Shown here: piece by piece, positions 12,817 through 52,362 of the stretch
How the letters are laid out: every line of letters begins with the position of its first letter
Position numbering within the stretch: position 1 is the stretch's first letter
Source of the DNA: a virus
Lineage: Duplodnaviria > Caudoviricetes
Virus record (IMG/VR): IMGVR_UViG_3300032087_005336
Location: 1 to 53,315 of that record
Reading direction: 5' to 3' (one strand)
Length of the DNA: 53,315 bases
The notes under the pieces: model-generated
Database searches by the model: none
What the model was told of the DNA's origin: nothing
What the model saw: the letters and a program-made list of their open reading frames with translations, nothing else
Translations under genes and position numbers: made by a program

Positions 12817-13659
12817 TCAACCGATCATGTCTAGTGGTGGAAGTTCATAAGTAGATGACATTCTCTCCCTAATTCTTTCTAACTCTCTTTCCGCATCATC
12901 AAACATTTGACGACCATTAAGTTCTACACCACCAGGAAGTTTTACTCCTTGGAACTTCATGAGGTTCTGACCCCATTGCCTCTTTACAAGGGCAGTCAGA
13001 TACATCTTAAGGAACGAATCGTTCCATACCTGAGTATATGTGCTTGGATCCAAAAGTCTCCAGCAATCTATAATTAAGTAGTCATTTTCAATAACTTGAC
13101 CCCAATCCATATCAACATATAATCTATCTTGCCTCTGATTGAATCTAAAATGCTTAAGTGGATTTAGAAGATGATCAATATCTGACAGTTTTGTTTGAAC
13201 CATAGAATATTGTAGAAGATCAATAGAATCCCAATAATATAAGTCATTCAAGAAAAGTTGATACTTCACACTAAACATGGATCCACTTGTAGCGGATGAA
13301 GATGCCATTCTAAAAATCTTATTTACACCTGTAACAGAACTAGGAACAGGTAAATAATTTGAATTTTCTTCAAAAGAAAATGATGATGTAGAACCAACTG
13401 TTTGTGTTACAGTTTCTGTAGTAATTCCTGATATTGTGCTACTTCCTCTAGATCTTCCCCTATCAATATCATCTTGGGTTATCTTATACTTTAAATATGT
13501 TCTAACTACACCATCAAAGTGTCTCTCATGAAAATATTGCAATGCATCATCAACTAGATCATCAATCTGCTCATCAGCAACATTGATTTCTAGAACAGGA
13601 GCACCTAATTGTCTCTTAACATAATTAATTAGATCTTGTCTAGATGATGGTTGTGCCAT
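12817..13659 (-). CDS. gp13: Neck protein
   Basis: LGAPVLEINV..EQIDD; KRQWGQNL.KF.GVKLPGGVELNG; late-promoter-like CTAAATA at 13679-13685. Confidence 0.93.
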   Translation of the reverse strand: MAQPSSRQDLINYVKRQLGAPVLEINVADEQIDDLVDDALQYFHERHFDGVVRTYLKYKITQDDIDRGRSRGSSTISGITTETVTQTVGSTSSFSFEENSNYLPVPSSVTGVNKIFRMASSSATSGSMFSVKYQLFLNDLYYWDSIDLLQYSMVQTKLSDIDHLLNPLKHFRFNQRQDRLYVDMDWGQVIENDYLIIDCWRLLDPSTYTQVWNDSFLKMYLTALVKRQWGQNLMKFQGVKLPGGVELNGRQMFDDAERELERIRERMSSTYELPPLDMIG

Positions 13660-25393: not shown

Positions 25394-28300
25394 TCACTCA
25401 GAATACTGAGTATATAACTTAGATCTTAGATGGAATACTCTCTTAACAATTGATGATGTAGAAAGACCTGCATAACCATCTTGAGGATATGCCTCAAAAG
25501 ATCTTGGTTGCTTTCTACTCTTATTTGGATCCCAATCAAGTCTTCCCCAAGAGAAGTTGCCAAAGAAACCAAAGTCTCTTGAATTCACAGTACCATCTCC
25601 ATCAAAAGTTGGAGATAAATCAGAATCAAAAGTTGCTTCAGTTGAACTAAAGATTTCATTATTAGCTGCCATTTCAAATACATCTTTAATAAGAGTAGTA
25701 ACTTCTAAAATATCAGTTGTTCCTACTCCAGGTACAGCAGCTGTTGTTCTATTAATATCATATGCCTGGAAGACATTTCCTCCTCTTTGAGTTACAATTC
25801 CAAGAACACTTCCATCATTATAGAGTGATGTTACACCTTTACCGACAGTTACCTCTGAAGTTGTGAAGTAATAATCTGTTAAAATGCCACTAACACCTGT
25901 AGTTACGAATCCACTATTATTAATAGCATCATTTCTTAAAGGTGAATAATGTGGAACATATAGTCCCAATTTCAATGCAGTTGTCGCAATACCAACGACT
26001 GAAGTGTTTGCAATAGAAATGATAGATCCAAAATCTCCATCATAAGTAACTTGCTTAACAAGTTCAGTTTTTGCTAATGGTGGTTCAATTAGTACATATG
26101 GTTTTTGTGTAGAAATATATCCACTTCCACCATCAGTGACATTAATTGATGTGATAGAACCATTAGTAACAACACAAGTTGCAATTGCAGTAGTTCCACC
26201 AGCACCAGGTGTGCCAATAGAAATTTCTGGATTAAATGTATATCCAGCACCTGCATTTGTAATAGAAACTGAAGTAATTGACCCACCAGCAGAAACAGTT
26301 ACAGTTCCTAAACCAGATTCTTGATAGTCTTGAGAAATAAATTCAACTTGACCTAGTTTAACACCAGCTAGATTTTCATTTCTATTATCAAAGAATGTAG
26401 TAACATTTTCAACCCAAGCAATTGTTGTATTAATTCCAAGAGGTTGGATTAAATTAGTAACTGGTGAAATATATGGTTCATAAAGATTTCTATCTTTTCC
26501 AATTGGTTCACCGTTGATGAAAACATCATCCTCCTGCTTACATGCCATAATTGGCCTTTCAAAACTTTCATCATCTACTCTTCCAATACCACTGTATGGG
26601 TTTGTAAGAATAATGTCAGATGTAAGAACATCTTCTACTGATCTATGATCTTCAGTCAAACCTGGAGAATCAGATTGTAGTTGAACAGTGTCTCCAACTT
26701 CAATTGGTTCGACAATATCAACTTCAACAACATCAACATCTCTTGTTCCTCTATAGAAAATAATTCTAGAAGTATATTCTTTAGGAATTGGTTCAGAGAA
26801 GATGAGCAAACTACCACCCTTAAAGGTATATGATTGATTTGGAACTTGTAGAATATCGTTAATGAATACCAAAACAGTTGCAGATACATCAATATTACTT
26901 CCAGGTCTTGCTCTAATTGAAAGTCTTTCACCTTGGAATGAAATTGGGAATACTCTTCGTACACCATCAAATCTATCATCTAGACTATCTAATTGTTGCA
27001 ATTGTCCAAGTGACCAGGCACTAAATTCATCACTATGAGTTTCACTAACAGTTACCTGGAATTCGTCAAATACTTTACTAGTATCTGTTGGAATACCAGT
27101 GCTTCCACCAATTGCAACAGTTAGAATTTCACCCTGACCATAAGCATAACCATTATTATTAAATTTAAATTCACCGATCGTAGTATCTCTACTTACAAAT
27201 ATATCAAGTGATGCTTTTGTTCCAATTCCTTGAACAGAATCGTTAGAGTAGATAAGTGGGATATTTGTATAACTTAGTGGAGAATCAAATCTTATTCTTG
27301 GTGGATTTGTGCTAGTATATGCAGTTCCTGGATTTGTAATAGCAACTCCAGTAATATGTCCATTCAATGCAGTCGCATAACCAATTATTGATAGATCAGA
27401 TGGAGTTTCGGCAAATACATTAATATGTGTCTGTATACCAGGTCTATAACCAGATCCACTGTTACCAATGCTGATAGCAGTGATAGATCCAAATCCAGAG
27501 ATCGTTGCAGTACCACCAGCAGCAACTAGTGGTTGATATCCAAGACCAGTTGTAGATCCAATATTTACAATTACACCACCAACAGGAACATTAGAACTAT
27601 TAACATCTTCACCTGGTGTCTGTGTAGTAGGTTCAAATAGAATATTTGTATATGCACCAGGCTCAGTTAATTCATAATTACCAACAATTGAGGAAACACC
27701 TAGTCTCTTCGGTTGTTGGAAGATATCTTTGATTAAAATAATTGCATTATCAGTGGAAACACCAGTAACATTTGATCCTTCATCAGTTGTTAGAGTAAAT
27801 GCAGTTCTAATACCAGTAAATTGGGAAGAAATATCATCAAAGATGTAGTTTTTAGTATAAGTTTCAAAAGTTTCATCCTCGATTCCAGATCTCATGAAGG
27901 TTCTTCCATGGAAATATGAATTTGTAGTAATTCCAGTGTAATCTCTATCTGATGGATCAACAAATGGAACACCAAACTGGTTTAGATCTGGAGTAACTGG
28001 TACTTTTCCATATGGTGGTGCAGCAAAGTTAATCGTTGATCCAACAATAGTATAATTACCAGTTAGTTTTTCAACTAAATCTCCAGCAGTATGGATACCT
28101 AGTTCTGTACCCATCCAAGGTCTTCTAACTCTAATTTTTTCATCAGAACCAACACCAACTGTATCAATTCTCATAATCTCATCATTAATCTTAATAATAT
28201 CTTGTGAGAAGAATGAAGTAATTCCAGTTGTATTGATTAAAGTATCCGTTAATGCAATATCCTCAGATAGTGTTGTCTTGATTCCCACTTTTACTAGTGG

Positions 28301-31300
28301 TGACTGCATCATGTTATCAATAGTAAATATTCCTTTAGTATCTTTATTTGTAGCAGTAATTTTATGCTGCGTTCCAATTCCAGCAGATGCTAGAATCAAT
28401 GGCTCTGAATTAAATTTCAGTGCCTTTTCTGCAGTATCTGTAAGTTTGATCTTACTATCATTAACTTTGATTACATAAAGATTTGTTGGAAGTTTATCAG
28501 TAGTTCCAATTCCAGCAACAGAGGCAGTTTCAATACCAATTGCAGTATCTTCTTCTGGATCATAAGTATACTTAACTAATTCTCCTGTTACAAAGAAATG
28601 ATTAGGAAGAATTAGAACATTTTCGTCTGTAGAAACAGATGTATTTAAAGCCGAAGCATCAAATGTTCTTTCAAAAATTAAATCACCCTGATGTCTTAAT
28701 TCAAAACTTCTCTTAACATCATTTTCTGTTCCAGTATAATCTCCATAAAGAGTACTAAATTCTCCACTTACATATTGAAGTCTATTAGTAGAAATACCCA
28801 GATCAACTGGACCCAATGAATTGATTAATAGTCTAACTTCAATTTCTCTATCTGCTCCTGTAGAAGCTAAGGGGTGGAAAGATATTGTAGTTTCTTTTGT
28901 AGATGAATCTACAGAAGCACTAAAGGTTCCAATACCAGTTTCTTCATAATCTTCGTCATTTACAGTCACACCAAATTCTGAAACATAAGCATTTGTACCA
29001 TTGTGTACTACTATTATCTCAGAGAATTGCTTGACATCATAAGCAATATCCTCAATACTAGCATAAACGTTAAATCCTTGATACTTAGACTCAAGTGTTG
29101 CAATTTCTATTGGATTTGGAGTAGAATCAACAGTAGTGCTGCCAAATCCTACTGTAGTTAATGTATTATTATAAGTACTTGTACCACTAGAAACTCTAGA
29201 AGTATCTGAGATAGAAACTACTGTAGAGAATACTTTATAATTTGTAGAAAGACCCACACTTGGTGCTAAAGTCATCTCAATTTCATTTCCATTATATCTA
29301 AACCCATAAGTTCCAATACCAAGTGAAACATCTTGGTCAGAAAAATTATCTGTTGCTAATGTTGAAAATTCAGTTTCATAGATTTCAGTTCCATCATGAA
29401 CGATATTAAATTCATCATATTGGAAGTATTGTAAATCAGTTGCCTCAAGAGTAACAATAACCTTTGAAGATGTATATGAAGAATCGATACCTACAATTTT
29501 AGTTGCAGTACTTGTTCCTTGTGGAATTGTTACTGTTTGAACTCCTACATTTGCAATATCACCAATATATTGAGTTGAAATTCCTGCAATAGACTCAGCA
29601 GCAGCATAAGAGTGACCACTTACATTATAATCAGTAAATCTAAATTCAACAGGATAGAATAATAATAGACCATTTCTTTCAAAAACCCCAATATCAAAAT
29701 ATCCTTGAACTGTATTTGTTTCGACTAGACCATATTGAGTTAAGAATCCATATGTACCATTATGAATAACATTCACAATGATCATCTGCCTTTCACCTGG
29801 GAACTTTTTGTTATTGGTGAATAGAATGTATTTTTTAGATCTATACTTATCTAAACTAAATGTATCTACGGTAACGAAAGCAGTTGGTCTTGGATTGCTA
29901 TTAAATTCATCACTAATATCATCAACAATTAGAACTCTATTACCAATAGATTCAAAATAGTCAACAAGTGCTAATGAATTGAATCTAATTTCATCAGATG
30001 TTTTATTGAGAATATTATTTTCTGTAGCAATATCAATATCATGAACACAGTTTAAGTTATAATAAGAATCGATATCAGCAATTCCAGTAAACCCACTTCC
30101 AGTCTGAATACCAACCATTTCAGAATCATCATCAGAAACAGATATTACCTGCAAATCACTAAACTTCTTCATTCCAGATGGATGAATTAGAGATTCTACG
30201 GGATCAGACCATGACCCAATTCCTACTTCGGACTTGATTGAATATGAGAAGTATTGATAATAATCACTATCATGAATTCTTTGAGTTTCTTCATTTAAGA
30301 AACCTTTCTTATCATAAAATCTATTTCTCTTTGCATTAGATGCATCTAATTCATATGTTAGTGTAGTGATGCCGATAACTTCAGTTAGAGTACCACTGGA
30401 TTTTGAAGTTTTACCTACAATAAAATCACCAATCTTATAAAGTTCTGGAGTACTTGTAAAGACTTTTAAGATTTCATTTTTGATTTCCCAAGAAACTACA
30501 ATATCTTCAGTAGTACCATTTGTTATAAGTTCATCAACAAAGAATTTATTTGGTTCTCTATTGACAGTAAATCTTGGGAAATATGATTGTGGAATTACTC
30601 TAGCAGAAGTAAATAGAAGGTTAAAAACACCAGGATTATTTTTAACAACAAAATCACTCATATTGAATGTGAATGATGGAAGTTGACCTCCAATATTAGG
30701 ATCTGCAGTTTTTACGGTAAACAATGCCTTGTAATCATAATCAGATGTGTTGTATCCCTCGTCAGTTTCGGGATTTATTGTTACAACACCCTCAATCATA
30801 AATTGGGATCCAACAGGGAATGGCCAAGCACTTAAGGTACTAAAACCAACAACATCCAAAGTGATTGTTGCATCTTTAGATCCACTATCATATGTTAGAT
30901 TTAGAATTTTATATCCATTACTATTATTAATTGGGATTAATCTTGGTTCTACGTCATAAAGATTTTTAGTATTTTTAATAATTTTAACTTCAAAATCTTC
31001 GTTTTCAACATAATCCAGTACAAGATCGTCTACAACTTTATTTGTATAACCATCAAGCATTACTAAATCTGGAAGAACAGTATAATTTTTTCCAGGATAT
31101 TCAATTTCAATTGACTCAACGGAAGTTAGAGGGTCAATTTTAAATACTGATGGTGAGAAAGCTCTTGGTCTAAGTGTAGTATCTGATGGGAAATCAAATC
31201 CAATATCGGAAATATCAATATCTTTTACTTTACCAATAGTTGTTGATCTTGCAAAAAGAATTTCATCGATTCCATTTTCAGTTATAACTTCTTTAATTCT

Positions 31301-34300
31301 TGGAAGTTTAATAAGACCAAAACCAGAAGAAACAAAATCAACCTCATTTATTGGACCAGAAGCAGTAGTTGAAATTGCAGAATATGATAGAGAGTCAATT
31401 TCCTTTACATAAGATGAAGAATCTGGTTTTTGGTTTAGTTTATATCTAAAAGTTTTATCAGTAACAGTATTAATTACATAATCACCATTTATAGGACTTT
31501 CTACTATAGAAATAGAATTTTCATAATCAGAATCAAGAAGTAGCTGAGTAAATGTAAATGGAGTTACATTATCTTTAATAGGATCTAATTTGTAGTATAG
31601 TTTAGATGGGAAGTTATCATCACAAACTAATTTTACATTTGCATCAACATCAATACCAATCCTGCCAGACTTTCTTACACTCAATGCATTTGATAGTTTT
31701 GAAGAAATAAACTCATGCCTTAAATTCTCATCATAGAAGAATTTGAGGGTAAATGCTGGATATCTAATATTACTTCTTACATAAGAAAGACTAGGATCCG
31801 ATAAATCAAATTTTAAAGTTTTATTTTTTTCTAAAGTCAACGGGGGATTTACTACAATCAGACGACCAAATGATTGGGTGGATATATTTTTTGTAGTTTC
31901 ACCATCAATAGACAATTTGATCTCATTCTGAGAATGTACAAGAACATAATACACACCATTATTAACCAAACCACCTGGAGCAGAGTCTGATTCTAGAATA
32001 ACTTTTTGCCCTGTCCTTAAACCATGATTATTAATAGTGATGATATTAGTCTGAGTATCTACATCAGAAGAAATAAATGCAAACAGTCCCGTACCAAACT
32101 TTTTATTTTGCTGATTATACGCAATTTTAATAGTTTTTTCGGCACTTGATTTACACTCAAAAGTTATTAGATCATTTGCACTCAAGTTATGATCTGTAGT
32201 TGTTTCTACAGTTGCCTCATAAGTTGATACAATTAATTTTGTAAGATTGTCATAATCAGTTTTAAAACTGTGATTATCACCTACACCAAAACTAGTAAAT
32301 GTTAAGAGTTCAGTTTCACTACCAATTCCAACAATTCCAGTAGATCCGAATCCAACGGGTCTACTGGAAATACCAATTAGACCATTTTGAAATGGAACTG
32401 CATAATATGGTTTATTTTTAACAAGATTAAAGTCATCACCAAAAGACTCTACTCTAATAGGATTGCTATCGTAATCATAGTAAATTACGTCATTAATTTC
32501 TAAGGTATTTCCTGCAAGATATATTCTATTTCCCGCAATGAATCTCTGAGTAGAACCTGCCCCAGGATTAGATACACTAATTGTAGTTCCAATTCCAACA
32601 CCAACAGATTGTTGTGGATTAAAGTAGAATTGAGAATTAAACTTACCAATTTTTGTATTCTGGAAATCATTATTTTGAATAATAAATTTCCTTGGAAGTT
32701 CATCTAACTTGGTTCCTGCCGAATAACTTGTCCCAATAGTTCCATTAATTTCTCTTTGAACTCTAAGTCTTGAATTAAAAGAATCTATATTGAGGATCTT
32801 TATTTCTTCATAGAAATTACCACGTTTAATTTTAAATACATCATTTGAAAGGATTGGAATTTCATTTTTGCTAGATTTTAATCCATAAATTCCAAAATAG
32901 GTAACAATTCCAGTTTGAGATGGTTGTCCAATGTCACCACTTAAAACAAGTTGCTTTTGACGGACTTCTAAATTCACATCATAAGTAGTATTCTCTTCAG
33001 TATTAAGAATATTTGCTAATCCAGATGACAGATTGTGCTGTGATGTGTAAATACCAAGAGCTTGTCCAAAGGAAGTATTAATTACTTCTACATCATAAAT
33101 GCTAGAAGATGCGATAGAAACAGAAGAAACTTCAGTTCCACCAATACTAACAACTTTTGCTAGTGGTCTTCTATTTGCTAATGTTGGATCATACTCAAAA
33201 GTAATCTTATCACCAACTTTAAAATCTCTACCACCTTCAAAAATATTAATATCAGTAACAGTACCAGAACTTACTTTTTTGATTTTAGAAATAAAATCTG
33301 TGTTATCTGATGGGTTAAATAAGTATTCATATTTTCCATATGGAGATGAAATATTATATGGTTGAATATTTCTAAGTAGATCATAATTTTTATAATCTTC
33401 TTTAATATCCCCATAGATAAAATCAGACTGTGTTACAGTAGAATCATAGTTAAAATCAATTACTTTGGATTTAAAGGTATTTCCAATAAAATATGGGAAT
33501 GCTGGTAATTTATAGTTTTTAAATCCAGCATCATTAGTTCCTAAGGTTGAAAAATATGCATATATTCCTTTTGGATATTCTGGTGTTACGCAAAATCTTC
33601 CATTATGAATATCCAAATCTCCTGTTGCAAGCCATTCGTAGTCATTTACAAAAAACCCTAAGGGGAAATCTGTTATTGATGGTCTGTTTGCAGTATTTCT
33701 CTTAGAATAACCACTTACCATTCTCTTGATTCCACCCGTTCCATCTGGATTTGCGTATCCAAATGGTCCATAAATTGGATTACCATCATATGCCCATCCT
33801 ATAATTGGAGAGTGGTAATCCGAATCAGTTTCTCTGCCCAAATTATCTAGAATTAAATCTGAACTAAAAATAGTTCTTCCATCAACTACTTTTTTGTTAT
33901 ATAAAGAACTTCTTAATTTTCTTGGAACGTAGCAATGACCATATTGCAAAATTCCATACTCTTCAGCATCGTCAAGAGTCGTTGTAGAATCTTGATAGAT
34001 GAAACCATCATCATCATAAATTTGATTTGAATTTAGATTTCTTTCAACTTCATTGATATTCCATTTTGTTATTTTGCCTTGGAACTTCGCACCAGATCCA
34101 GCAGATACAATTTCTATCTCTGTAGAATCATTATAATTATATCCACCATTCTTTACTATAACATCAGATAAAACACCGTTTGATATGACTGGAATTAATT
34201 CTGCACCATATCCATTTCCATCGGTATAAATTTCAATACTTGGATTTGATGAATAATTCTGACCAACATTTTGAATAATTACTTCTTCTATAACTCCATT

Positions 34301-37300
34301 TACGATAAATGGTTTTACAGATGCTAGTTTTCCAGGTTCTGCAGTTATTCTTGGTTGCCTATTATAGTTAATAATGTTTGTACAACCATATCCAACACCC
34401 TTGTTTTCTAAAAATACATTTGTAATAGTACCTCTAGCAACTGGTTCAACCTGCGGAGATACTGCGTAAATACTCTTCTTAGATGGTGTTACTTCTACAG
34501 TAATTTCTGGATATTTAAAATATTGTCTTCCAACACCAAAAGTTGTTAAGTCTTTATAGATGTTATTATCGTAATAATATGTACTTAATGTGTTTCCAAT
34601 TCCAATATCAGATAATTTAAATCTATTATCATCAACTTTAGTGACATAGTAACTTGAAGAACTTGTTAAACCTGAAATAGGTGTTGTTGTCGCATCATAA
34701 ACGATAATCTCACCATTACTAAATCCATGATTTGGAATGATAATATTGTTTGAATAAAAATCGATTGGAACAGATGATATATTTGGATCGTATGATACTC
34801 TCCTATAAGTGAAATCTTCTGATGAATTTGTAACTCTAATTTCGGAAAGTTTTTTCTTTTTCTGTAAGGCAACTAGCTTATGATCACCTACTCCAAATGC
34901 AGTCAGATCAATCCTGTTTTCTAAATTCTCAGCATCTCTTTCATTATTATGTAAAGTAAATGATGTATTATCAATTACACCAACATAATAGATTGATTTG
35001 TTTTTAAGACCTCCAATTTCATCTCTTCCAAAAGTATCATAAAGAACTTTTTCTCCTGGATAGAAATAATGATTTGATAAAGTTATGATGGTATCAGTTG
35101 TAATACCAACACCAAATTGAGTTGATGCATCAAATTTTACTTCATGAGTATAAGTTTCCATAACTGGAATTGCATCACAATTTGATCCATTAGCTCCACT
35201 AATTTTTACAGTTGGTGCATCAATATAATTAAATCCACCATTAATAACATTTGTTCCTACAATAGATCCTTTTATTACAAAATCTCCAGATGCATTAATA
35301 CCGCCATTTGCAACACCATCTGCATTTTCACCATCAAAAATTTCCAATGCTGGTGGACTAGTGATATCATAACCTTCACCACCAGACAATACAAAGACAT
35401 CCTCCAATTCACCATAAAAAATATTATTTTTTGATTTATAATTTAATATTTCAACACCATTTCTCAAAATTCCAATCTTTCCCGTTTTAGTTTCTTCAGG
35501 AACAATTTGATCAACTGGTGGAATAATTCGTTTTACAATTCTCTTTGACTTTAAAGTGAAAGGATCTTCAAGATTTAAAACTCTTTCAATATCGGAATAG
35601 TCTGAATAGTAGAAAGTATTATTGGTTACACTTCCCTCTACTGTAATATATTCCTTAGAATATACTCTGTTCAAACTTGTTGATAACTTAATTGTTTTAT
35701 TATCAACTACTGTTACATAATATCTGCCATTTGGTATACTTAGTTTATTAGTGTTTGGATCTCCAAAATCATCTTCTTCTGGTTCACTATAAATGATAGA
35801 ATCTCCAGTATAAAATGAATGAGTTTTTTCTGGAACCGTTGGTGTAGCATCGGCACCAATTTTTATATTTTTATTGTTTTGATTTGATGGTAAAGAAACT
35901 GAAAAAGTAATTCTTCTGTCATTTGTTGTCAGTTGTTCATTAGAATAATTAGGGATAGAAGAAGATGTTACAAATAATTCATCTCTTAAATCTTTAGGTC
36001 TATAAATGTTCTGGACATCGGAAGCATACTCATTTGCTTCAGGAAAAAATCTAAAATTGGCTTTATTGAGTTTTCTCTCTAAAGTAAATGTTTTTAATGT
36101 AGAATCAAAGTCTGTGATGCGAGAAGATGATATGATAACATAAGTAGATAGATCATTTCTAGAAACAACCTGAACATCATAACTTTCACCCGTTGAAGAC
36201 TTTAGAAAAAATCTATCATTTAATGTAATATCAAAACCATCTTGAAGAGTAATAAAATACTTTCTTTCAATTTCACTTACTAGTGAAATAGTATCAATGT
36301 TATATGTTGTTGCTACATTATAGGTCCAATCATTATATTTCTTACTTTGATCTTTTAGTCCTAAAGTATTAAACTTTACTGGATCATTGTCAAAGAAATA
36401 TGAATTATCATCAGGAATTAAGTCACTAAGTACACTTGTGATTCTAAAATATGCAGTGCTTTCATCATCTAAAGTTACATATCCATATCTCTTAGAGGAG
36501 ATTAAAGCTCCTCGGGGAATATCATTATTAGAATCTACTCTATAAAATTCGTTAACAGAATTATCACCAACTGAAATTGATCTTACAGTGCCATCTTCAT
36601 AATATACATTCAAATTTCTAGATGCGTCAAATCCTATACATGAATCTACATGTAAAACGGATGGTCTATTACCCTCAGCATCTTCTTCATAATCTTCTGT
36701 TACTCTTGTGGATGCAGTAACTTCAAACTTTCCAAAAACTGTTCCAGCTACTGAAATGTCTTTATCATAATCATTATCTAAGCTAGCAATATAATAAGTT
36801 TTTGTACCTCTTTGTATTCTTTCTACATTTGTAATAGTACCATAAGCAGTAATTGGCTCTTCTAGATCTTGGCTATTGGTTTCTCTCTGATAAATTGTTC
36901 TATTTAAGATTAAATCGGTATAATCAACATCATTATCAAGTGCTTCTAAGACTAAATCTCGTACTCTTCTATTTGATGAAGCAGAAGCTTCAAAAACACT
37001 ATCACTTGGACGAATAATTTCTACTTTTTTGTTGTATAAAGCATTAAATAGAATCTTAAATCCTTCTTCGGTTCCTTTTGAAGAATAAAAGTCACTTATT
37101 TGCTTATAAAATAGTCTAGAATTTAAATCTTCGGATAATTCTCTGCTCTCAAACCCTGGAGATACTTGCTTCTTTAATTTTGATAAGAATACATTTAAAA
37201 ATAATGCACTAAGATTTTCTACAGTAGAAAAAGAATAATGATAATCAGTTACTGACTCTGAAAAAATAATTTCATCACCATATTCACTAATTCCACTAAA

Positions 37301-37657
37301 ACCTCTTACACACCCCTCAAATGTTGTAGAAGTTTTTGATGTATATGTAATAATTTCGTCATCGATTTTTAAAAGACCATACGAAGATGGAAATCCCTCA
37401 GTACTTACGACTTCAATAGAATCAGTATAACGATCTGCCTCATTAGTAAGAGTTGTTGACTGTGGAGTCAACAAAAGTACATCCAAGTTGATATAATTAT
37501 CAATATTTTGTAGAATATCCTGAGGTGCTCCAGGATATTCTAAAGATTCTTGATATTGACGTAAAAAATCCTTAAAGAGTGGAAAATCATCATTAACAAA
37601 ATCTGGAACTTGGTTTTGAAGAACCTGAGCAAGACGGATTTTATTCTTATCTACCAT
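25394..37657 (-). CDS. gp7: Baseplate wedge initiator, very large (4087 aa)
   Basis: QVPDFV..DFPLF..FL..Y N-terminus; FYSSKGT..GFKILF; RIHDSDYYQYFSYSIKS...HPSGMKKF; lies between gp6 and gp8. Confidence 0.85.
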   Translation of the reverse strand: MVDKNKIRLAQVLQNQVPDFVNDDFPLFKDFLRQYQESLEYPGAPQDILQNIDNYINLDVLLLTPQSTTLTNEADRYTDSIEVVSTEGFPSSYGLLKIDDEIITYTSKTSTTFEGCVRGFSGISEYGDEIIFSESVTDYHYSFSTVENLSALFLNVFLSKLKKQVSPGFESRELSEDLNSRLFYKQISDFYSSKGTEEGFKILFNALYNKKVEIIRPSDSVFEASASSNRRVRDLVLEALDNDVDYTDLILNRTIYQRETNSQDLEEPITAYGTITNVERIQRGTKTYYIASLDNDYDKDISVAGTVFGKFEVTASTRVTEDYEEDAEGNRPSVLHVDSCIGFDASRNLNVYYEDGTVRSISVGDNSVNEFYRVDSNNDIPRGALISSKRYGYVTLDDESTAYFRITSVLSDLIPDDNSYFFDNDPVKFNTLGLKDQSKKYNDWTYNVATTYNIDTISLVSEIERKYFITLQDGFDITLNDRFFLKSSTGESYDVQVVSRNDLSTYVIISSSRITDFDSTLKTFTLERKLNKANFRFFPEANEYASDVQNIYRPKDLRDELFVTSSSIPNYSNEQLTTNDRRITFSVSLPSNQNNKNIKIGADATPTVPEKTHSFYTGDSIIYSEPEEDDFGDPNTNKLSIPNGRYYVTVVDNKTIKLSTSLNRVYSKEYITVEGSVTNNTFYYSDYSDIERVLNLEDPFTLKSKRIVKRIIPPVDQIVPEETKTGKIGILRNGVEILNYKSKNNIFYGELEDVFVLSGGEGYDITSPPALEIFDGENADGVANGGINASGDFVIKGSIVGTNVINGGFNYIDAPTVKISGANGSNCDAIPVMETYTHEVKFDASTQFGVGITTDTIITLSNHYFYPGEKVLYDTFGRDEIGGLKNKSIYYVGVIDNTSFTLHNNERDAENLENRIDLTAFGVGDHKLVALQKKKKLSEIRVTNSSEDFTYRRVSYDPNISSVPIDFYSNNIIIPNHGFSNGEIIVYDATTTPISGLTSSSSYYVTKVDDNRFKLSDIGIGNTLSTYYYDNNIYKDLTTFGVGRQYFKYPEITVEVTPSKKSIYAVSPQVEPVARGTITNVFLENKGVGYGCTNIINYNRQPRITAEPGKLASVKPFIVNGVIEEVIIQNVGQNYSSNPSIEIYTDGNGYGAELIPVISNGVLSDVIVKNGGYNYNDSTEIEIVSAGSGAKFQGKITKWNINEVERNLNSNQIYDDDGFIYQDSTTTLDDAEEYGILQYGHCYVPRKLRSSLYNKKVVDGRTIFSSDLILDNLGRETDSDYHSPIIGWAYDGNPIYGPFGYANPDGTGGIKRMVSGYSKRNTANRPSITDFPLGFFVNDYEWLATGDLDIHNGRFCVTPEYPKGIYAYFSTLGTNDAGFKNYKLPAFPYFIGNTFKSKVIDFNYDSTVTQSDFIYGDIKEDYKNYDLLRNIQPYNISSPYGKYEYLFNPSDNTDFISKIKKVSSGTVTDINIFEGGRDFKVGDKITFEYDPTLANRRPLAKVVSIGGTEVSSVSIASSSIYDVEVINTSFGQALGIYTSQHNLSSGLANILNTEENTTYDVNLEVRQKQLVLSGDIGQPSQTGIVTYFGIYGLKSSKNEIPILSNDVFKIKRGNFYEEIKILNIDSFNSRLRVQREINGTIGTSYSAGTKLDELPRKFIIQNNDFQNTKIGKFNSQFYFNPQQSVGVGIGTTISVSNPGAGSTQRFIAGNRIYLAGNTLEINDVIYYDYDSNPIRVESFGDDFNLVKNKPYYAVPFQNGLIGISSRPVGFGSTGIVGIGSETELLTFTSFGVGDNHSFKTDYDNLTKLIVSTYEATVETTTDHNLSANDLITFECKSSAEKTIKIAYNQQNKKFGTGLFAFISSDVDTQTNIITINNHGLRTGQKVILESDSAPGGLVNNGVYYVLVHSQNEIKLSIDGETTKNISTQSFGRLIVVNPPLTLEKNKTLKFDLSDPSLSYVRSNIRYPAFTLKFFYDENLRHEFISSKLSNALSVRKSGRIGIDVDANVKLVCDDNFPSKLYYKLDPIKDNVTPFTFTQLLLDSDYENSISIVESPINGDYVINTVTDKTFRYKLNQKPDSSSYVKEIDSLSYSAISTTASGPINEVDFVSSGFGLIKLPRIKEVITENGIDEILFARSTTIGKVKDIDISDIGFDFPSDTTLRPRAFSPSVFKIDPLTSVESIEIEYPGKNYTVLPDLVMLDGYTNKVVDDLVLDYVENEDFEVKIIKNTKNLYDVEPRLIPINNSNGYKILNLTYDSGSKDATITLDVVGFSTLSAWPFPVGSQFMIEGVVTINPETDEGYNTSDYDYKALFTVKTADPNIGGQLPSFTFNMSDFVVKNNPGVFNLLFTSARVIPQSYFPRFTVNREPNKFFVDELITNGTTEDIVVSWEIKNEILKVFTSTPELYKIGDFIVGKTSKSSGTLTEVIGITTLTYELDASNAKRNRFYDKKGFLNEETQRIHDSDYYQYFSYSIKSEVGIGSWSDPVESLIHPSGMKKFSDLQVISVSDDDSEMVGIQTGSGFTGIADIDSYYNLNCVHDIDIATENNILNKTSDEIRFNSLALVDYFESIGNRVLIVDDISDEFNSNPRPTAFVTVDTFSLDKYRSKKYILFTNNKKFPGERQMIIVNVIHNGTYGFLTQYGLVETNTVQGYFDIGVFERNGLLLFYPVEFRFTDYNVSGHSYAAAESIAGISTQYIGDIANVGVQTVTIPQGTSTATKIVGIDSSYTSSKVIVTLEATDLQYFQYDEFNIVHDGTEIYETEFSTLATDNFSDQDVSLGIGTYGFRYNGNEIEMTLAPSVGLSTNYKVFSTVVSISDTSRVSSGTSTYNNTLTTVGFGSTTVDSTPNPIEIATLESKYQGFNVYASIEDIAYDVKQFSEIIVVHNGTNAYVSEFGVTVNDEDYEETGIGTFSASVDSSTKETTISFHPLASTGADREIEVRLLINSLGPVDLGISTNRLQYVSGEFSTLYGDYTGTENDVKRSFELRHQGDLIFERTFDASALNTSVSTDENVLILPNHFFVTGELVKYTYDPEEDTAIGIETASVAGIGTTDKLPTNLYVIKVNDSKIKLTDTAEKALKFNSEPLILASAGIGTQHKITATNKDTKGIFTIDNMMQSPLVKVGIKTTLSEDIALTDTLINTTGITSFFSQDIIKINDEIMRIDTVGVGSDEKIRVRRPWMGTELGIHTAGDLVEKLTGNYTIVGSTINFAAPPYGKVPVTPDLNQFGVPFVDPSDRDYTGITTNSYFHGRTFMRSGIEDETFETYTKNYIFDDISSQFTGIRTAFTLTTDEGSNVTGVSTDNAIILIKDIFQQPKRLGVSSIVGNYELTEPGAYTNILFEPTTQTPGEDVNSSNVPVGGVIVNIGSTTGLGYQPLVAAGGTATISGFGSITAISIGNSGSGYRPGIQTHINVFAETPSDLSIIGYATALNGHITGVAITNPGTAYTSTNPPRIRFDSPLSYTNIPLIYSNDSVQGIGTKASLDIFVSRDTTIGEFKFNNNGYAYGQGEILTVAIGGSTGIPTDTSKVFDEFQVTVSETHSDEFSAWSLGQLQQLDSLDDRFDGVRRVFPISFQGERLSIRARPGSNIDVSATVLVFINDILQVPNQSYTFKGGSLLIFSEPIPKEYTSRIIFYRGTRDVDVVEVDIVEPIEVGDTVQLQSDSPGLTEDHRSVEDVLTSDIILTNPYSGIGRVDDESFERPIMACKQEDDVFINGEPIGKDRNLYEPYISPVTNLIQPLGINTTIAWVENVTTFFDNRNENLAGVKLGQVEFISQDYQESGLGTVTVSAGGSITSVSITNAGAGYTFNPEISIGTPGAGGTTAIATCVVTNGSITSINVTDGGSGYISTQKPYVLIEPPLAKTELVKQVTYDGDFGSIISIANTSVVGIATTALKLGLYVPHYSPLRNDAINNSGFVTTGVSGILTDYYFTTSEVTVGKGVTSLYNDGSVLGIVTQRGGNVFQAYDINRTTAAVPGVGTTDILEVTTLIKDVFEMAANNEIFSSTEATFDSDLSPTFDGDGTVNSRDFGFFGNFSWGRLDWDPNKSRKQPRSFEAYPQDGYAGLSTSSIVKRVFHLRSKLYTQYSE

Positions 37658-37664
37658 TTTTTTA

Positions 37665-50490: not shown

Positions 50491-50572
50491 GAGTGGTGTT
50501 CCTTTGACTCTTCTAAGATACACGATCTAGAGTGCCGTGCATATTTCGTGTGACACTCTGTCATCTGTCCCG
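50491..50572 (-). promoter_or_regulatory. Repeated early promoter/operator/leader element, copy D
   Basis: Imperfect palindrome 50549-50571, TATCTT -10, leader GAGTCAAAGGAACACC. Confidence 0.78.
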
Positions 50573-50881
50573 CCAGTGTTGAGTTTTGTCTAAAATCCAT
50601 CCTAGAGCACCAATTGCAAGGAGAGGTACAACAATCCACCAGTATTCTACTGCTAACCATATCATAAACAGAACGGCACAAAGTATTAACAATCCATTAG
50701 TATCTCCCATGGTAGATGAACCCCATCCATCCACTTCATGTAAATCTTGGACTTCACCTTCACTTACACAATATATGTCACAAATTTTTACTCTTGCAGT
50801 GTTCCAAGTTGGTGCTTGAACTTCTACTTCATAGATTCCAACATTATGCTCTTTGATTGTTGCTTTCCAAGTTGACATCAA
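50561..50881 (-). CDS. Small membrane protein
   Basis: Soluble N-terminus plus two C-terminal hydrophobic helices. Confidence 0.7.
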   Translation of the reverse strand: MMSTWKATIKEHNVGIYEVEVQAPTWNTARVKICDIYCVSEGEVQDLHEVDGWGSSTMGDTNGLLILCAVLFMIWLAVEYWWIVVPLLAIGALGWILDKTQHWRDR

Positions 50882-50915
50882 TCAGTCCTCCCAATGTTCG
50901 GAATTGTAGCACAGT

Positions 50916-51482
50916 TCAGGTGGCAAGTCTATACCCATAAGCAGTTTTTTGTTTCCCATTTAACATCATTGTGAAGTTTCCTCGGTTGATGTTCCTCTCT
51001 CTACAGAACTGTGATATATTCGTGCCTTCAATAATTTCTCCAGTTTCTATATCAATCACCTTAAAAGTTTTAGAGCAGGATATTGCTGATGCGGCAGAAC
51101 CTTTTAATCTGTGATCTTTCATCACATCTTCAGTTAATGAGTGAAACCCAAGTTTTCTTTTAACACATTCTTTGCCCCAAGATTTCAATATATTTCTTGT
51201 ATCTTCACTTGCAATTCTACCACTTACTCCATCACCACCATCAGTTCTGTTTCTTAAAATGCCCGTGTTATTGTCCTTTCTTCCATATAGGGCAATCATA
51301 TACATTTCGTGCTTCTTTGCATCATCATCCGAAAGATTTGTCTTTAGATATATTATTCTTGTTCTATCTTTTGGGGGTTTTACATCCCATCTGCCCCTAT
51401 TTGTAACTCGTTTTCCTTTACCCTTACCAATGTAGTAGGGCGTTCCATCTTCACGCAAATATGCGTAAGTGTAGTATTCCAT
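50916..51482 (-). CDS. GIY-YIG-like free-standing homing endonuclease
   Basis: YYTYAYL...PYYIGKG..KR, conserved E, LRNRTDGGDG; C-terminal HTH/NUMOD-like tail (ISQFCRE...KTAYGY). Confidence 0.8.
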   Translation of the reverse strand: MEYYTYAYLREDGTPYYIGKGKGKRVTNRGRWDVKPPKDRTRIIYLKTNLSDDDAKKHEMYMIALYGRKDNNTGILRNRTDGGDGVSGRIASEDTRNILKSWGKECVKRKLGFHSLTEDVMKDHRLKGSAASAISCSKTFKVIDIETGEIIEGTNISQFCRERNINRGNFTMMLNGKQKTAYGYRLAT

Positions 51483-51504
51483 CTGCTTTAATCGTGGTTA
51501 TTAG

Positions 51505-51512
51505 TATTTATT
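51505..51512 (-). promoter_or_regulatory. Late promoter (AATAAATA) for the endonuclease
   Basis: 22 nt upstream of ATG 51482, immediately after a terminator. Confidence 0.7.
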
Positions 51513-51536
51513 AAAAAAGGGATCTTACGACCCCTT
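51513..51536 (-). terminator. Intrinsic terminator with GNRA tetraloop
   Basis: AAGGGGUC-GUAA-GAUCCCUU followed by UUUU. Confidence 0.8.
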
Positions 51537-51564
51537 CGTTTGCTTAAACAACCACGATTAAGCA
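51513..51564 (-). ncRNA. Candidate ~50-nt small RNA complementary to the endonuclease leader
   Basis: Bounded by late-promoter-like CTAAATA (51569-51575) and the terminator; 5' GCUUAAUCGUGGUU is the reverse complement of 51485-51499 leader with one bulge; expression not shown. Confidence 0.45.
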
Positions 51565-51571
51565 TCAGTAT

Positions 51572-51961
51572 TTAGTCCCAACGTTCATAACTCCATTTGT
51601 TATTTGTCACGGAGTAATATACATCTTTAATGCCACAATCTCTCAGGTATGCTTCACATACTGGACACGGGCGAGCAATCCTTAATTCATCCTGATTGTG
51701 TCCACCCAAACGTGCAACAATGATCTTATCACCTTCCTCCCTTGCTTTCACTAATGCAGACAATTCTGCATGAAGAAAGATCTTTTGTGGTCGTCCTACT
51801 TTTTGTGCCCAATGTGCTTGAAGTGGATGAGATTTCTTCTCATTGTTAGTAGCACAGACAATTACTCGATTCTTTTTGAGTAGAATAGCACCAACTTTCT
51901 TCTTGGAAGGTGATGATGCTGCGATCTCAGTTGCAAGTTTGAAGAGGTTTTCCATCAACAT
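51572..51961 (-). CDS. Zn-dependent cytidine/dCMP deaminase-like protein
   Basis: VGAIL, HAE and PCPVC motifs. Confidence 0.85.
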   Translation of the reverse strand: MLMENLFKLATEIAASSPSKKKVGAILLKKNRVIVCATNNEKKSHPLQAHWAQKVGRPQKIFLHAELSALVKAREEGDKIIVARLGGHNQDELRIARPCPVCEAYLRDCGIKDVYYSVTNNKWSYERWD

Positions 51962-52362
51962 TCATCCGATTTGATACACGACGATTGTGCATAGGGATCT
52001 TCATCATTACACCAGAAATCTTCCCAATCAGAATTACTTGCTACCCCAACATTCTTCTCTTCGTAGTCATTTACGATTTTTCGATACATTTGCTGGGTCC
52101 AACCATCGTTGTAGGGTGAGTTCGCGTGAATCAATGCCTCATGGTATTCTTCTTCACTAATCAGGGAACGTGGAGGCAAACCATTCAACAAATCAAGAAG
52201 ATTCTGACACTTGTTTGAATACTTCTGGAAATATGCAAGAGAACTTTCTACTTCATTCTTGATGTCACGATACAACTCATCGGGTGTAGTATCTTCATCA
52301 CCAATGTAATCAAAGATTGCATCATTCAGACGTTCACGTCGTTGCTCTGAATACTCTTTCAT
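51955..52362 (-). CDS. Acidic hypothetical protein
   Basis: Start reassigned to MKEYSEQRRE (ATGA overlap with upstream stop). Confidence 0.7.
   Translation of the reverse strand: MKEYSEQRRERLNDAIFDYIGDEDTTPDELYRDIKNEVESSLAYFQKYSNKCQNLLDLLNGLPPRSLISEEEYHEALIHANSPYNDGWTQQMYRKIVNDYEEKNVGVASNSDWEDFWCNDEDPYAQSSCIKSDEC

What the first reader, a model, noticed from the sequence alone, without database searches (positions are those of the whole stretch)
51483..51575. Candidate sRNA-nuclease pair: a terminated ~50-nt RNA complementary to the 5' leader of a homing endonuclease mRNA
Seen on the minus strand, in order: CTAAATA-ctgat, then GCTTAATCGTGGTTGTTTAAGC, then terminator AAGGGGTC-GTAA-GATCCCTTTTTT, then AATAAATA-ctaat, then AACCACGATTAAAGCAG-ATG. 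Both late-promoter-like motifs sit 5 nt before a repeat arm, so the predicted RNAs would begin at the arms. The arms are complementary over 12 bp perfectly, about 15 with one bulge, covering nearly the whole 17-nt leader. The upstream arm also folds its own hairpin (GCUUAA/UUAAGC) that exposes UCGUGGUU in the loop, like an antisense seed. Established: T4-family endonucleases such as I-TevI are silenced by cis hairpins that hide the ribosome-binding site on read-through transcripts. Inference: here a terminator and a separate promoter would make the silencing arm an independent RNA acting in trans, a type-I-antitoxin-like brake that travels with a selfish nuclease, while also working in cis on read-through.
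Basis: partly seen in the sequence, partly recalled or inferred. Interest (0 to 1): 0.82.

Follow-up and report, generated by a model that had tools for sequence, protein, structure and literature searches.

The report
Two-promoter RNA mask on cyanophage nuclease
The 96 bases in front of this cyanophage's selfish DNA-cutting gene are one copy of a widespread, movable RNA control module that hides the gene's translation start by base pairing, as phage T4 does, and that also looks like a gene for a small antisense-like RNA that nobody has yet observed.

Summary
On the minus strand lie CTAAATA (51575-51569), a 5' hairpin and anti-leader arm (51563-51542), a terminator hairpin with T-tract (51536-51513), ATAAATA (51511-51505), the 17-nt leader (51499-51483) and the ATG of a GIY-YIG-like nuclease gene.

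It is not a one-off. The same module precedes GIY-YIG, HNH, NUMOD-only and TnpB genes in over 100 viral contigs and in cultured cyanophages S-SRM01, B23 and S-N03. Three helices covary strongly: long-range arm1:arm2, the local 5' hairpin, and the terminator. Both TAAATA motifs are invariant.

An empty site in phage S-SCSM1 shows the 676-nt insert begins exactly at CTAAATA.

The cis part is a known kind: a terminator plus a mask over the translation start, bypassed by an inner late promoter (T4 I-TevI, Aeh1 mobE; marine hairpins in Dassa 2009). I did not find the outer promoter, 5' hairpin and terminator described in print. Together they predict a separate ~51-nt RNA.

No transcript evidence could be obtained; one metatranscriptome contig merely spans the module.

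This scan has reported the same module on at least nine other genomes, likewise without RNA evidence.

Verdict: real, conserved, a new variant of a known kind. The trans-acting sRNA is plausible (~50%) but unproven.

The parts
51572..51961 (-). dCMP/cytidine deaminase gene (129 aa). Its last codons and its stop are supplied by the insert junction.
   Evidence: ORF. Pfam PF00383, E 1e-11. 86% DNA identity to the dCMP deaminase of Synechococcus phage S-SCSM1.
51576..51586 (-). Left copy of an 11-nt direct repeat (GAACGTTGGGA) that flanks the insert.
   Evidence: Three-way alignment with the S-SCSM1 empty site.
50900..51575 (-). Whole inserted cassette (676 nt): control module plus nuclease gene. 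It is absent from the homologous site of S-SCSM1.
   Evidence: In S-SCSM1 the deaminase is followed after 3 nt by the homologue of the 106-aa ORF. Junctions are defined.
51569..51575 (-). Outer (distal) late-promoter-like motif CTAAATA. It is the first bases of the insert and overlaps the deaminase stop.
   Evidence: The motif is invariant as [A/C]TAAATA in all aligned modules. CTAAATA also sits 26 and 29 nt before the ATG of a virion gene and of a gene in the tail-fibre region of this window.
51513..51563 (-). Predicted ~51-nt RNA: from the predicted +1 (G, the 6th base after the motif) to the end of the T-tract. It consists of the 5' hairpin plus the terminator hairpin.
   Evidence: Fold of -19.3 kcal/mol. 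The transcript itself was NOT observed.
51542..51563 (-). Local 5' hairpin P1: stem GCUUAA/UUAAGC with loop UCGUGGUUGU.
   Evidence: The hairpin starts at the predicted +1 in 79 of 83 distinct modules. It is 97.7% paired, and 4 of 5 pairs have changes on both sides across 96 sequences.
51547..51564 (-). Arm 1 (anti-leader). It pairs with arm 2 on read-through RNA. Its core is complementary to the first 15 nt of the late mRNA.
51513..51536 (-). Intrinsic-terminator-like hairpin (8-9 bp, GUAA loop) followed by a T-tract.
   Evidence: Helix 96.8% paired, 6 of 7 pairs with changes on both sides. At least 5 T in the next 8 nt in 85 of 96 modules. Not listed by the simple scan.
51505..51511 (-). Inner (proximal) late-promoter-like motif ATAAATA, 29 nt (motif start to ATG) upstream of the nuclease start codon.
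   Evidence: the same spacing as before the large ORFs (presumed virion genes) of this window. Invariant in 44 of 44 distinct modules.
51483..51499 (-). Arm 2, the 17-nt leader of the late nuclease mRNA. It is predicted to be single-stranded when arm 1 is absent.
50916..51482 (-). Free-standing GIY-YIG-like homing endonuclease gene (188 aa) with an I-HmuI/NUMOD-like C-terminal DNA-binding part.
50889..50899 (-). Right copy of the 11-nt repeat (GAACATTGGGA). With the next 7 bases it is the displaced original end of the deaminase gene (codons E H W E D stop).
50561..50881 (-). Downstream 106-aa predicted membrane ORF. In the empty site it is the native neighbour of the deaminase.
   Evidence: 40% identity to S-SCSM1 gene 262, E 5e-20.

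Best explanation
The region is one copy of a portable ~100-nt RNA control module. The module travels at the 5' end of selfish nuclease genes (GIY-YIG, HNH, NUMOD-only, TnpB) in T4-like cyanophages.

**Proposed working**
1. The terminator stops transcription coming from the upstream early gene. (Inferred from sequence and covariation.)
2. RNA that reads through folds arm 1 onto arm 2. This buries the whole 17-nt leader to within 2 nt of the AUG, so the nuclease is not translated. (Inferred; analogous to T4 I-TevI.)
3. The inner late promoter starts the mRNA at the first base of arm 2. Late mRNA therefore lacks arm 1 and is translatable. (Inferred.)
4. The outer late promoter starts an RNA at the first base of arm 1, and that RNA ends at the terminator. 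The result is a ~51-nt RNA with a 5' hairpin whose loop and 5' strand are complementary to the first 15 nt of the late mRNA. It most likely pairs with that mRNA in trans and caps the nuclease dose late in infection. (Inferred; no transcript seen.)

**My odds**
- Steps 1-3: about 0.8.
- The short RNA is made: about 0.7.
- It represses in trans: about 0.5. The confidence given is for the whole dual-mode statement.
For: **Fold of the window copy**
- The window copy folds far better than shuffles (z = -4.4).

**Conservation of the architecture**
- Of the 80 best loci encoding relatives of the nuclease, 61 carry the same architecture. The covariance model finds it in 64 places of 81 sources.
- Both TAAATA motifs, and the TG before arm 1, are invariant among 42 aligned sequences. 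The spacers beside them vary.

**Covariation**

| Helices | Sequences | Cells paired | Shuffled | Slid | Pairs changed on both sides | Shuffles reaching it |
|---|---|---|---|---|---|---|
| Long-range helix plus terminator | 44 distinct | 92.5% | 79.9% | at most 59% | 21 of 27 | 0 of 500 |
| 5' hairpin | 96 | 97.7% | n/a | n/a | 4 of 5 | n/a |
| Terminator | 96 | 96.8% | n/a | n/a | 6 of 7 | n/a |

- For one search, 0 of 500 shuffles reach the observed score for the whole structure.
- In the 5' hairpin the closing pair is G-U in 27 of 96 sequences and G-C in 61. This fits RNA on this strand.
- Cognate arms pair at -20.6 kcal/mol on average, against -9.8 for non-cognate arms, over 34 arm haplotypes.

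**The predicted RNAs begin at the arms**
- The 5' hairpin starts at the sixth base after the outer motif in 79 of 83 distinct modules.

**The outer motif is not an artefact of how modules were found**
- A scan that did not require it gave 68 new loci. Only one (L255) held a real module, and that module has CTAAATA one base closer.
- A separate TnpB protein-based sample gave 12 distinct module-bearing loci, all with the motif.
- Nine modules in cultured phages all have it.

**The outer motif belongs to the mobile insert**
- The S-SCSM1 empty site has no TAAATA, and the insert starts at the C of CTAAATA.

**CTAAATA and ATAAATA behave as late promoters in this window**
- They are found on the coding strand only.
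- They lie 20-34 nt before the start codons of large ORFs; one tested downstream gene (12817-13659) is a virion gene (phrog_211).
- NATAAATA is the published cyanophage late-promoter consensus (PMC2984593, passages).

**The late leader is free and can pair**
- The late leader is predicted to be unpaired. The two-RNA fold gives a net -13.1 kcal/mol.
Against: - No RNA 5' or 3' end was seen. The one metatranscriptome contig (244 nt, window 51415-51658) runs straight through the module. It fits read-through RNA or DNA carry-over as well.
- The leader has no recognisable Shine-Dalgarno sequence, so 'RBS occlusion' is really occlusion of an unstructured leader.
- Net two-RNA binding is only moderately better than with shuffled arms (shuffled mean -7.3, sd 3.2, best -17.1), because the 5' hairpin must open.
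- Both promoters are of the same late class. The logic of making repressor and target together is unexplained; a pulse or dose cap is my inference.
- The simple terminator scan did not call the terminator.
- RNAalifold on the plain MAFFT alignment gave no structure. The covariation counts rest on alignments fitted to the models.
- None of five cyanophages I recalled as having published expression studies (Syn9, S-PM2, P-HM2, P-SSM2, S-RSM4) carries the module. No published start-site map can therefore be consulted.
Confidence: 0.5

Rival explanations
1. Cis-only mask. The module works exactly like T4 I-TevI or Aeh1 mobE. The terminator and the arm1:arm2 hairpin silence read-through RNA, and the inner late promoter bypasses them. 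The outer TAAATA is either not an active promoter or makes a short by-product RNA with no function. It would be kept because it marks the cassette's 5' edge and often supplies the stop codon of the interrupted upstream gene.
For: - The mechanism is established for T-even and Aeh1 homing endonuclease genes (PMC2988022, passages).
- It was proposed for marine metagenomic endonuclease genes: hairpins in 15 of 16 leaders, 10 of them with a late-promoter motif (PMC2677866, section 14).
- Of 77 distinct upstream flanks with a long upstream frame, 28 stop at the motif's own TAA. A further 15 stop 4 nt later, and 11 stop at a TGA overlapping its first base.
- A metatranscriptome contig crosses the terminator.
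Against: - The motif is intact in every one of the roughly 20 flanks where the upstream stop lies before it. The stops fall in different frames, so a stop-codon role cannot explain six invariant bases.
- The 5' hairpin is maintained by compensatory changes and begins at the predicted +1. A cis-only mask has no need for a structure that competes with the mask.
- Neighbouring spacer bases vary freely while the motif never does.
Confidence: 0.38
2. DNA-level element. The inverted repeat and the two TAAATA direct repeats would be recombination or insertion signals. They could be a cruciform, a protein-binding site or a PeSL-like shuffling hotspot, rather than an RNA structure.
For: - The module sits at the exact 5' boundary of the insert.
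- It recombines freely with unrelated downstream genes.
- PeSL terminator-promoter composites are proposed to mediate modular shuffling in T4-like phages (PMC4122927, passages).
Against: - G-U pairs are frequent and substitute for A-U and G-C in all three helices. They would be mismatches in DNA and on the other strand.
- The terminator is followed by a T-tract on this strand only.
- Flanking direct repeats are not a general feature: 5 of 63 loci have one of 10 nt or more, no better than shuffles.
Confidence: 0.05
3. A small peptide is encoded from the conserved ATG/GTG/TTG that overlaps the start of arm 1.
For: 41 of 44 distinct modules have ATG, GTG or TTG at that place.
Against: - The frame closes after 2 to 32 codons, at unrelated places.
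- Module lengths are spread evenly over the three residues modulo 3 (13, 14 and 17 of 44).
- The peptides share nothing beyond what the helix sequence dictates.
- The invariant TG is part of the long-range helix.
Confidence: 0.02

Closest known systems
Translational masks with a nested late promoter on T-even and Aeh1 homing endonuclease genes (I-TevI, I-TevII, I-TevIII, segB; mobE of phage Aeh1). Source: PMC2988022, passages read.
   Same: - A hairpin hides the translation start on long transcripts.
- A late promoter inside the hairpin gives late mRNA that lacks the 5' arm.
- Terminators limit read-through.
- The regulated gene is a selfish nuclease.
   Different: - Here a second late-promoter motif sits exactly at the 5' foot of the mask.
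- A covarying local hairpin starts at its predicted +1.
- A terminator lies between the arms, so the masking arm could be made as a separate RNA.
- The leader has no Shine-Dalgarno sequence.
- The module is shared by unrelated nuclease families.
Conserved leader hairpins of free-standing endonuclease genes in marine 'fractured gene' loci. Source: Dassa et al. 2009, PMC2677866; passages and the whole of section 14 read. Figures and supplement not seen.
   Same: - Marine phage-like metagenomic loci.
- Hairpins before GIY-YIG and other endonuclease genes.
- A late-promoter motif inside the hairpin.
- Two conserved motifs that complement each other.

This is very probably the same module family.
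   Different: The text I read mentions no terminator, no second promoter, no local 5' hairpin and no separate RNA. Its Supplementary Figure S4 and Figure 4A, which I could not see, may show more.
CfrI antisense RNA of cyanophage S-PM2, linking psbA and the homing endonuclease gene F-CphI. Known to me through a review (PMC12197685, passages); the original paper was not read.
   Same: A non-coding RNA of a T4-like cyanophage associated with a homing endonuclease gene.
   Different: - CfrI is a ~225-nt true antisense transcript from the opposite strand.
- S-PM2 has no copy of the present module.
PeSL composite terminator/early-promoter cassettes of T4-like phages. Sources: PMC4122927, passages read; PMC2839356, search listing only.
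   Same: Short, conserved, mobile terminator-plus-promoter units at gene boundaries. They shuffle between loci.
   Different: - PeSLs carry early sigma-70-type promoters.
- They have no arms complementary to the downstream leader.
- They are not tied to nuclease genes.
- The paper does not mention cyanophages (0 occurrences).
Short terminated RNAs from phage late promoters and layered control of selfish elements. Examples: StxS from PR' of Stx phages (PMC7547250, abstract start only); IS200 with its terminator, RBS hairpin and art200 sRNA (recalled, not looked up).
   Same: - A promoter followed at once by a terminator yields a regulatory small RNA.
- In IS200 as I recall it, a selfish gene is damped by a terminator, an RBS hairpin and an sRNA together.
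   Different: - These are different organisms and unrelated sequences.
- StxS acts on host targets.
- art200 is a true antisense RNA.

Membership tests
Late-promoter-in-hairpin translational mask (T4 I-TevI type) | A stable helix includes the translation initiation region on transcripts that start upstream. | tested here: met
   An 18-bp helix covers leader positions -17 to -2. It is predicted in 42 of 42 aligned modules and covaries. This is computational only.
Late-promoter-in-hairpin translational mask (T4 I-TevI type) | A late promoter lies inside the hairpin, so late mRNA lacks the 5' arm. | tested here: met
   ATAAATA at 51511-51505 lies between the arms. The predicted +1 is the first base of arm 2. 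The motif is invariant in 44 of 44 distinct modules.
Late-promoter-in-hairpin translational mask (T4 I-TevI type) | A Shine-Dalgarno sequence is sequestered. | tested here: not met
   The leader AACCACGAUUAAAGCAG has no GGAG-like element. What is hidden is an unstructured leader.
Late-promoter-in-hairpin translational mask (T4 I-TevI type) | Translation is delayed to late infection, shown by experiment. | not testable with these tools
   Needs infection time courses.
Trans-acting base-pairing sRNA / type I antitoxin-like RNA | Own promoter and own terminator that define a short transcript. | tested here: met
   The sequence marks are present and conserved: the outer motif in all modules and a covarying terminator. 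Function as a promoter was not shown.
Trans-acting base-pairing sRNA / type I antitoxin-like RNA | The RNA is detected as a discrete species. | tested here: inconclusive
   Only assembled contigs of RNA libraries were available. One spans the module, and no ends are visible.
Trans-acting base-pairing sRNA / type I antitoxin-like RNA | Complementarity to the target's translation start, kept by compensatory change. | tested here: met
Trans-acting base-pairing sRNA / type I antitoxin-like RNA | For type I antitoxins: transcribed antisense to, and overlapping, a small toxin gene. | tested here: not met
   It lies on the same strand, upstream and without overlap. The target is a 188-aa nuclease.
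GIY-YIG homing endonuclease | GIY and YIG motifs with conserved Arg, Glu and Asn. | tested here: met
   Across 31 relatives, Y4, Y6, Y17, G19, E59 and N78 are invariant and R25 nearly so. Assigning them to the catalytic residues of I-TevI is from recall.
GIY-YIG homing endonuclease | Match to the curated family model or to solved structures. | tested here: inconclusive
   - No Pfam GIY-YIG hit.
- PDB by sequence: 'GIY-YIG domain-containing protein' at E 0.27 (single sequence) and 0.046 (profile).
- Foldseek: UvrC GIY-YIG domain at probability 0.96-0.99 but E 0.1, and I-HmuI at E 0.025.
- tblastn hits are annotated Seg-like, intron endonuclease.
GIY-YIG homing endonuclease | Presence/absence polymorphism at a conserved site. 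| tested here: met
   Empty site in S-SCSM1. This is one comparison only; none was found for B23.
PeSL mobile regulatory cassette | Stem-loop terminator joined to an early sigma-70 promoter. | tested here: not met
   Both promoter motifs are of the late TAAATA type. No sigma-70-like site was called inside the module.
Any Rfam family | Covariance-model match. | tested here: not met
   0 matches at E up to 10 in 50800-52000.

The most novel reading that the evidence does not exclude
Each cassette encodes its own cognate anti-leader small RNA, made from the outer late promoter. If so, T4-like cyanophages carry a family of dozens of mutually orthogonal sRNA-mRNA pairs that ride with selfish nucleases: GIY-YIG, HNH and even the RNA-guided nuclease TnpB.

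Made at the same time as its target but more stable, the sRNA would turn nuclease expression into a brief pulse at the onset of late transcription. This would be the first class of trans-acting regulatory sRNAs in T4-like phages, and a portable, self-contained dose limiter for mobile nucleases.
Probability: 0.4. Interest if true: 0.8.

Novelty: new variant of a known kind. Interest (0 to 1): 0.62.

Why it matters
Homing endonucleases and TnpB nucleases are selfish genes that must stay harmless to the phage that carries them. How they are kept in check outside phage T4 is little known.

**What is shown here**
- In aquatic cyanophages they share one movable control unit.
- The unit's RNA structure is kept by selection.

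**If the outer promoter really makes a free RNA**
- The unit would be a compact, self-contained sRNA-target pair that moves between genes and genomes.
- It would come with many naturally orthogonal arm pairs.
- That matters for phage gene regulation and for the biology of TnpB.
- It could also serve as a source of orthogonal riboregulators.

**How to settle it**
The question can be tested directly in cultured phages that carry the module (S-SRM01, B23, S-N03).

Tried and rejected
**Rfam.** No match at E up to 10.

**RNAalifold on the plain MAFFT alignment A1.** It gave no structure at all. The cause is register shifts between arm types, so I moved to covariance-model alignments.

**RNA evidence**
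- One search for runs and one laying were allowed.
- Four RNA-labelled runs, all held as assembled contigs, gave 4, 2, 1 and 1 pieces.
- Run X1 has a 244-nt piece over 51415-51658 with no differences.
- X2's piece over 51416-51476 runs on into unlike sequence on both sides, so it comes from a relative.
- No starts, ends or strands can be read from contigs, and DNA carry-over is possible. There is therefore no verdict on the sRNA.

**Published start-site maps**
- The module is absent from Syn9, S-PM2, P-HM2, P-SSM2 and S-RSM4 (0 of 5).
- The same procedure found it in 3 of 5 other named phages.
- Phage ACG-2014f's related nuclease has only a single promoter motif and no arms.

**A second empty site.** A distant blastn search of the B23 locus found none.

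**Target-site duplications as a general feature.** Rejected.

**Small ORF.** Rejected.

**An 'orphan' outer-promoter-plus-hairpin unit (L155:11248-11308).** No complementary leader occurs elsewhere in its 13-kb locus. It is probably a remnant.

**Simple terminator scan.** It did not list the module's terminator.

**Literature.** Searches for a description of the two-promoter or sRNA reading found none. Supplements were closed. Supplementary Figure S4 of PMC2677866 may bear on this.
Full report
**What is there**

The window is a 53-kb fragment of a T4-like cyanophage. It is a viral contig with an estimated completeness of 23%. Its nearest named relative is Synechococcus phage S-SCSM1.

All ORFs I relied on in the regions examined, and all 16 [A/C]TAAATA motifs, lie on the minus strand. 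Read on that strand, the finding's region runs as follows:
- the end of a dCMP-deaminase gene (Pfam PF00383);
- CTAAATA overlapping its stop, then 5 nt;
- GCTTAATCGTGGTTGTTTAAGC;
- a GC-rich hairpin with six T;
- ATAAATA, then 5 nt;
- AACCACGATTAAAGCAG and the ATG of a 188-aa ORF.

Every coordinate in the finding is right. The 12-nt core of the arms occurs only at these two places in the window. The stretch folds 4.4 sd better than shuffles.

**The gene**

The ORF has no Pfam hit at E 0.001. Its relatives nevertheless keep invariant Y, Y, Y-x-G, E and N residues and a nearly invariant R.

Other evidence on its identity:
- A profile of 31 relatives touches a solved 'GIY-YIG domain-containing protein' at E 0.046.
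- Its AlphaFold model has mean pLDDT 79. It resembles the UvrC GIY-YIG domain (probability up to 0.99, E 0.1) and I-HmuI (E 0.025).
- tblastn hits in other phages are annotated as Seg-like or intron endonucleases.

I read it as a free-standing GIY-YIG homing endonuclease. The family assignment is only moderately tested.

**It is an insert, and the insert starts at the outer motif**

In S-SCSM1 the deaminase gene is followed after 3 nt by the homologue of the window's 106-aa ORF.

A three-way alignment shows four things:
- The window has 676 extra bases (51575-50900).
- The insert begins with the C of CTAAATA.
- It is flanked by an 11-nt repeat.
- The displaced original end of the deaminase gene survives after the nuclease gene.

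The whole control region therefore came in with the nuclease. Such flanking repeats are not general in other loci.

**It is a family**

A protein-based scan of viral contigs found 249 relatives of the nuclease; the best 80 loci were kept.
- 61 of the 80 carry the same layout in front of the gene, as 41 distinct sequences.
- 19 carry only one TAAATA and no arms.

A covariance model of the module finds 64 copies in these 81 sources and only one in the window.

Of the 80 loci returned, 63 modules were distinct. They stand in front of several kinds of gene:
- several GIY-YIG subfamilies;
- an HNH-motif (by eye; no Pfam hit) 363-aa ORF;
- NUMOD3-only proteins;
- five ~398-aa proteins. One was scanned and matches OrfB_IS605, the Cas12f1-like TNB domain and HTH_OrfB_IS605, so it is TnpB.

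Cultured phages also carry the module: S-SRM01 has six copies, B23 two and S-N03 one.

**Three helices are under selection**

The counts below were made on model-fitted alignments.

| Helix | Cells paired | Pairs changed on both sides | Sequences |
|---|---|---|---|
| Long-range helix plus terminator | 92.5% (shuffled 79.9%; slid at most 59%) | 21 of 27 | 44 distinct |
| Local 5' hairpin | 97.7% | 4 of 5 | 96 |
| Terminator | 96.8% | 6 of 7 | 96 |

- No shuffle of 500 reached the observed covariation score in either count.
- G-U pairs replace G-C and A-U. For example, the closing pair of the 5' hairpin is G-U in 27 of 96 sequences. That points to RNA on this strand.
- An alignment-free check agrees. 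Own arms pair at -20.6 kcal/mol on average and foreign arms at -9.8, over 34 arm haplotypes.
- Caveat: these alignments lean towards the structure, and RNAalifold on the raw MAFFT alignment saw nothing.

**The outer motif**

The motif is [A/C]TAAATA in every module I saw:

| Sample | Modules with the motif |
|---|---|
| Protein-based sample, distinct modules | 44 of 44 |
| Independent TnpB protein-based sample | 12 of 12 |
| Named phages | 9 of 9 |
| Further full modules found by the second model | 6 of 6 |

- A scan that did not ask for the motif returned 68 new loci. Only one held a real module, and that module has the motif one base closer.
- The spacer bases next to the motif vary.
- The motif is not kept merely as a stop codon. 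Upstream genes end at several offsets and frames around it, some up to 24 nt before it.
- The 5' hairpin begins at the sixth base after the motif in 79 of 83 distinct modules. That is where, from recall, a T4-type late transcript would start.
- In the window, the same motifs lie only on the coding strand, 20-34 nt before the starts of large ORFs; one tested downstream gene is a virion gene.
- NATAAATA is the published cyanophage late-promoter consensus (PMC2984593).

**Mechanism**

Three steps follow the established T4 scheme (PMC2988022): the terminator, the mask on read-through RNA, and the bypass by the inner late promoter. I hold these at about 0.8. They rest on sequence and covariation, not on experiment.

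The outer promoter, 5' hairpin and terminator together predict a ~51-nt RNA.
- Its loop and 5' strand match the first 15 nt of the late mRNA.
- That leader is predicted to be free, and the two-RNA fold gains -13.1 kcal/mol.
- I put the RNA's existence at about 0.7 and trans repression at about 0.5.

The cis-only rival (0.38) explains everything except the invariant outer motif and the 5' hairpin.

**What is known**

Dassa et al. 2009 described hairpins with a late-promoter motif and two complementary conserved motifs before GIY-YIG and Vsr-like endonuclease genes in marine metagenomic loci (PMC2677866). This is very likely the same family. The text I could read mentions no terminator, second promoter or separate RNA.

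Four literature searches found no such description. Rfam has no such family.

Earlier reports of this scan describe the same module on at least nine other genomes, with the same open question. None has RNA evidence.

**Verdict**

The feature is real and conserved. It is a new variant of a known kind of control. Its most interesting reading, a cassette-borne trans-acting small RNA, remains untested.

RNA evidence was sought and not obtained. One metatranscriptome contig spans the module without showing ends. None of five cyanophages I recalled as having published expression studies carries the module.

Noticed in passing
L098:135-1441, L105, L114, L137, L162; L318-L345: TnpB genes (Pfam OrfB_IS605, Cas12f1-like TNB, HTH_OrfB_IS605) in large cyanophage-like contigs carry the same two-promoter module. 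One 243-kb contig holds at least five TnpB copies. In these loci a further conserved stretch (AAAACTTCA-like) precedes the outer motif. TnpB relatives at 35-56% identity lack the module.
   Followed up: partly
L155:11248-11308 (minus strand): An incomplete unit: outer CTAAATA, a 5' hairpin and a weak terminator-like stretch, with no inner promoter and no arm 2. It lies in front of an unrelated 278-aa ORF. No complementary leader occurs elsewhere in the 13-kb locus. It is probably a remnant after loss of the nuclease gene.
   Followed up: partly
window 50883-50899 (minus strand): The original last codons and stop of the deaminase gene (E H W E D stop, as in S-SCSM1) survive as a relic downstream of the nuclease gene. 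The living gene now ends in codons supplied at the insert junction.
   Followed up: yes
L019:292-476: A second module in this locus begins 3 nt after a tRNA-Leu gene, which is itself preceded by a tRNA-Ile gene. It drives a different GIY-YIG subfamily. From recall, this resembles T4 segB in the tRNA region. The near-identical module in L075 precedes an HNH-like gene instead.
   Followed up: partly
window 50500-50525 (minus strand); L001:3290-3315: The leader AGTCAAAGGAAC... lies before the ATG of the ORF downstream of the 106-aa gene and is conserved in S-SCSM1. An earlier first-reader note (e1-6300597) describes it as part of a dispersed ~80-bp early-promoter element with about six copies between 44011 and 53315. 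If so, the cassette sits in an early transcription unit.
   Followed up: no
window, whole: ATAAATA (10) and CTAAATA (6) occur only on the minus strand, and CTAAATA is rarer than in shuffles (6 against 14). These words seem to be avoided except where they are used.
   Followed up: partly
window about 25400-37660 and 14270-22040 (minus strand): Two very long open frames (4087 and 2590 codons from the first ATG) lie among the virion genes. I did not examine them.
   Followed up: no
MN695335.1 41542-42165; MN695334.1; PV340852.1 156271-156693: Relatives of this nuclease are annotated 'translation initiation factor 2' in phages B23, B3 and Sf-CH5. This looks like a misannotation.
   Followed up: no
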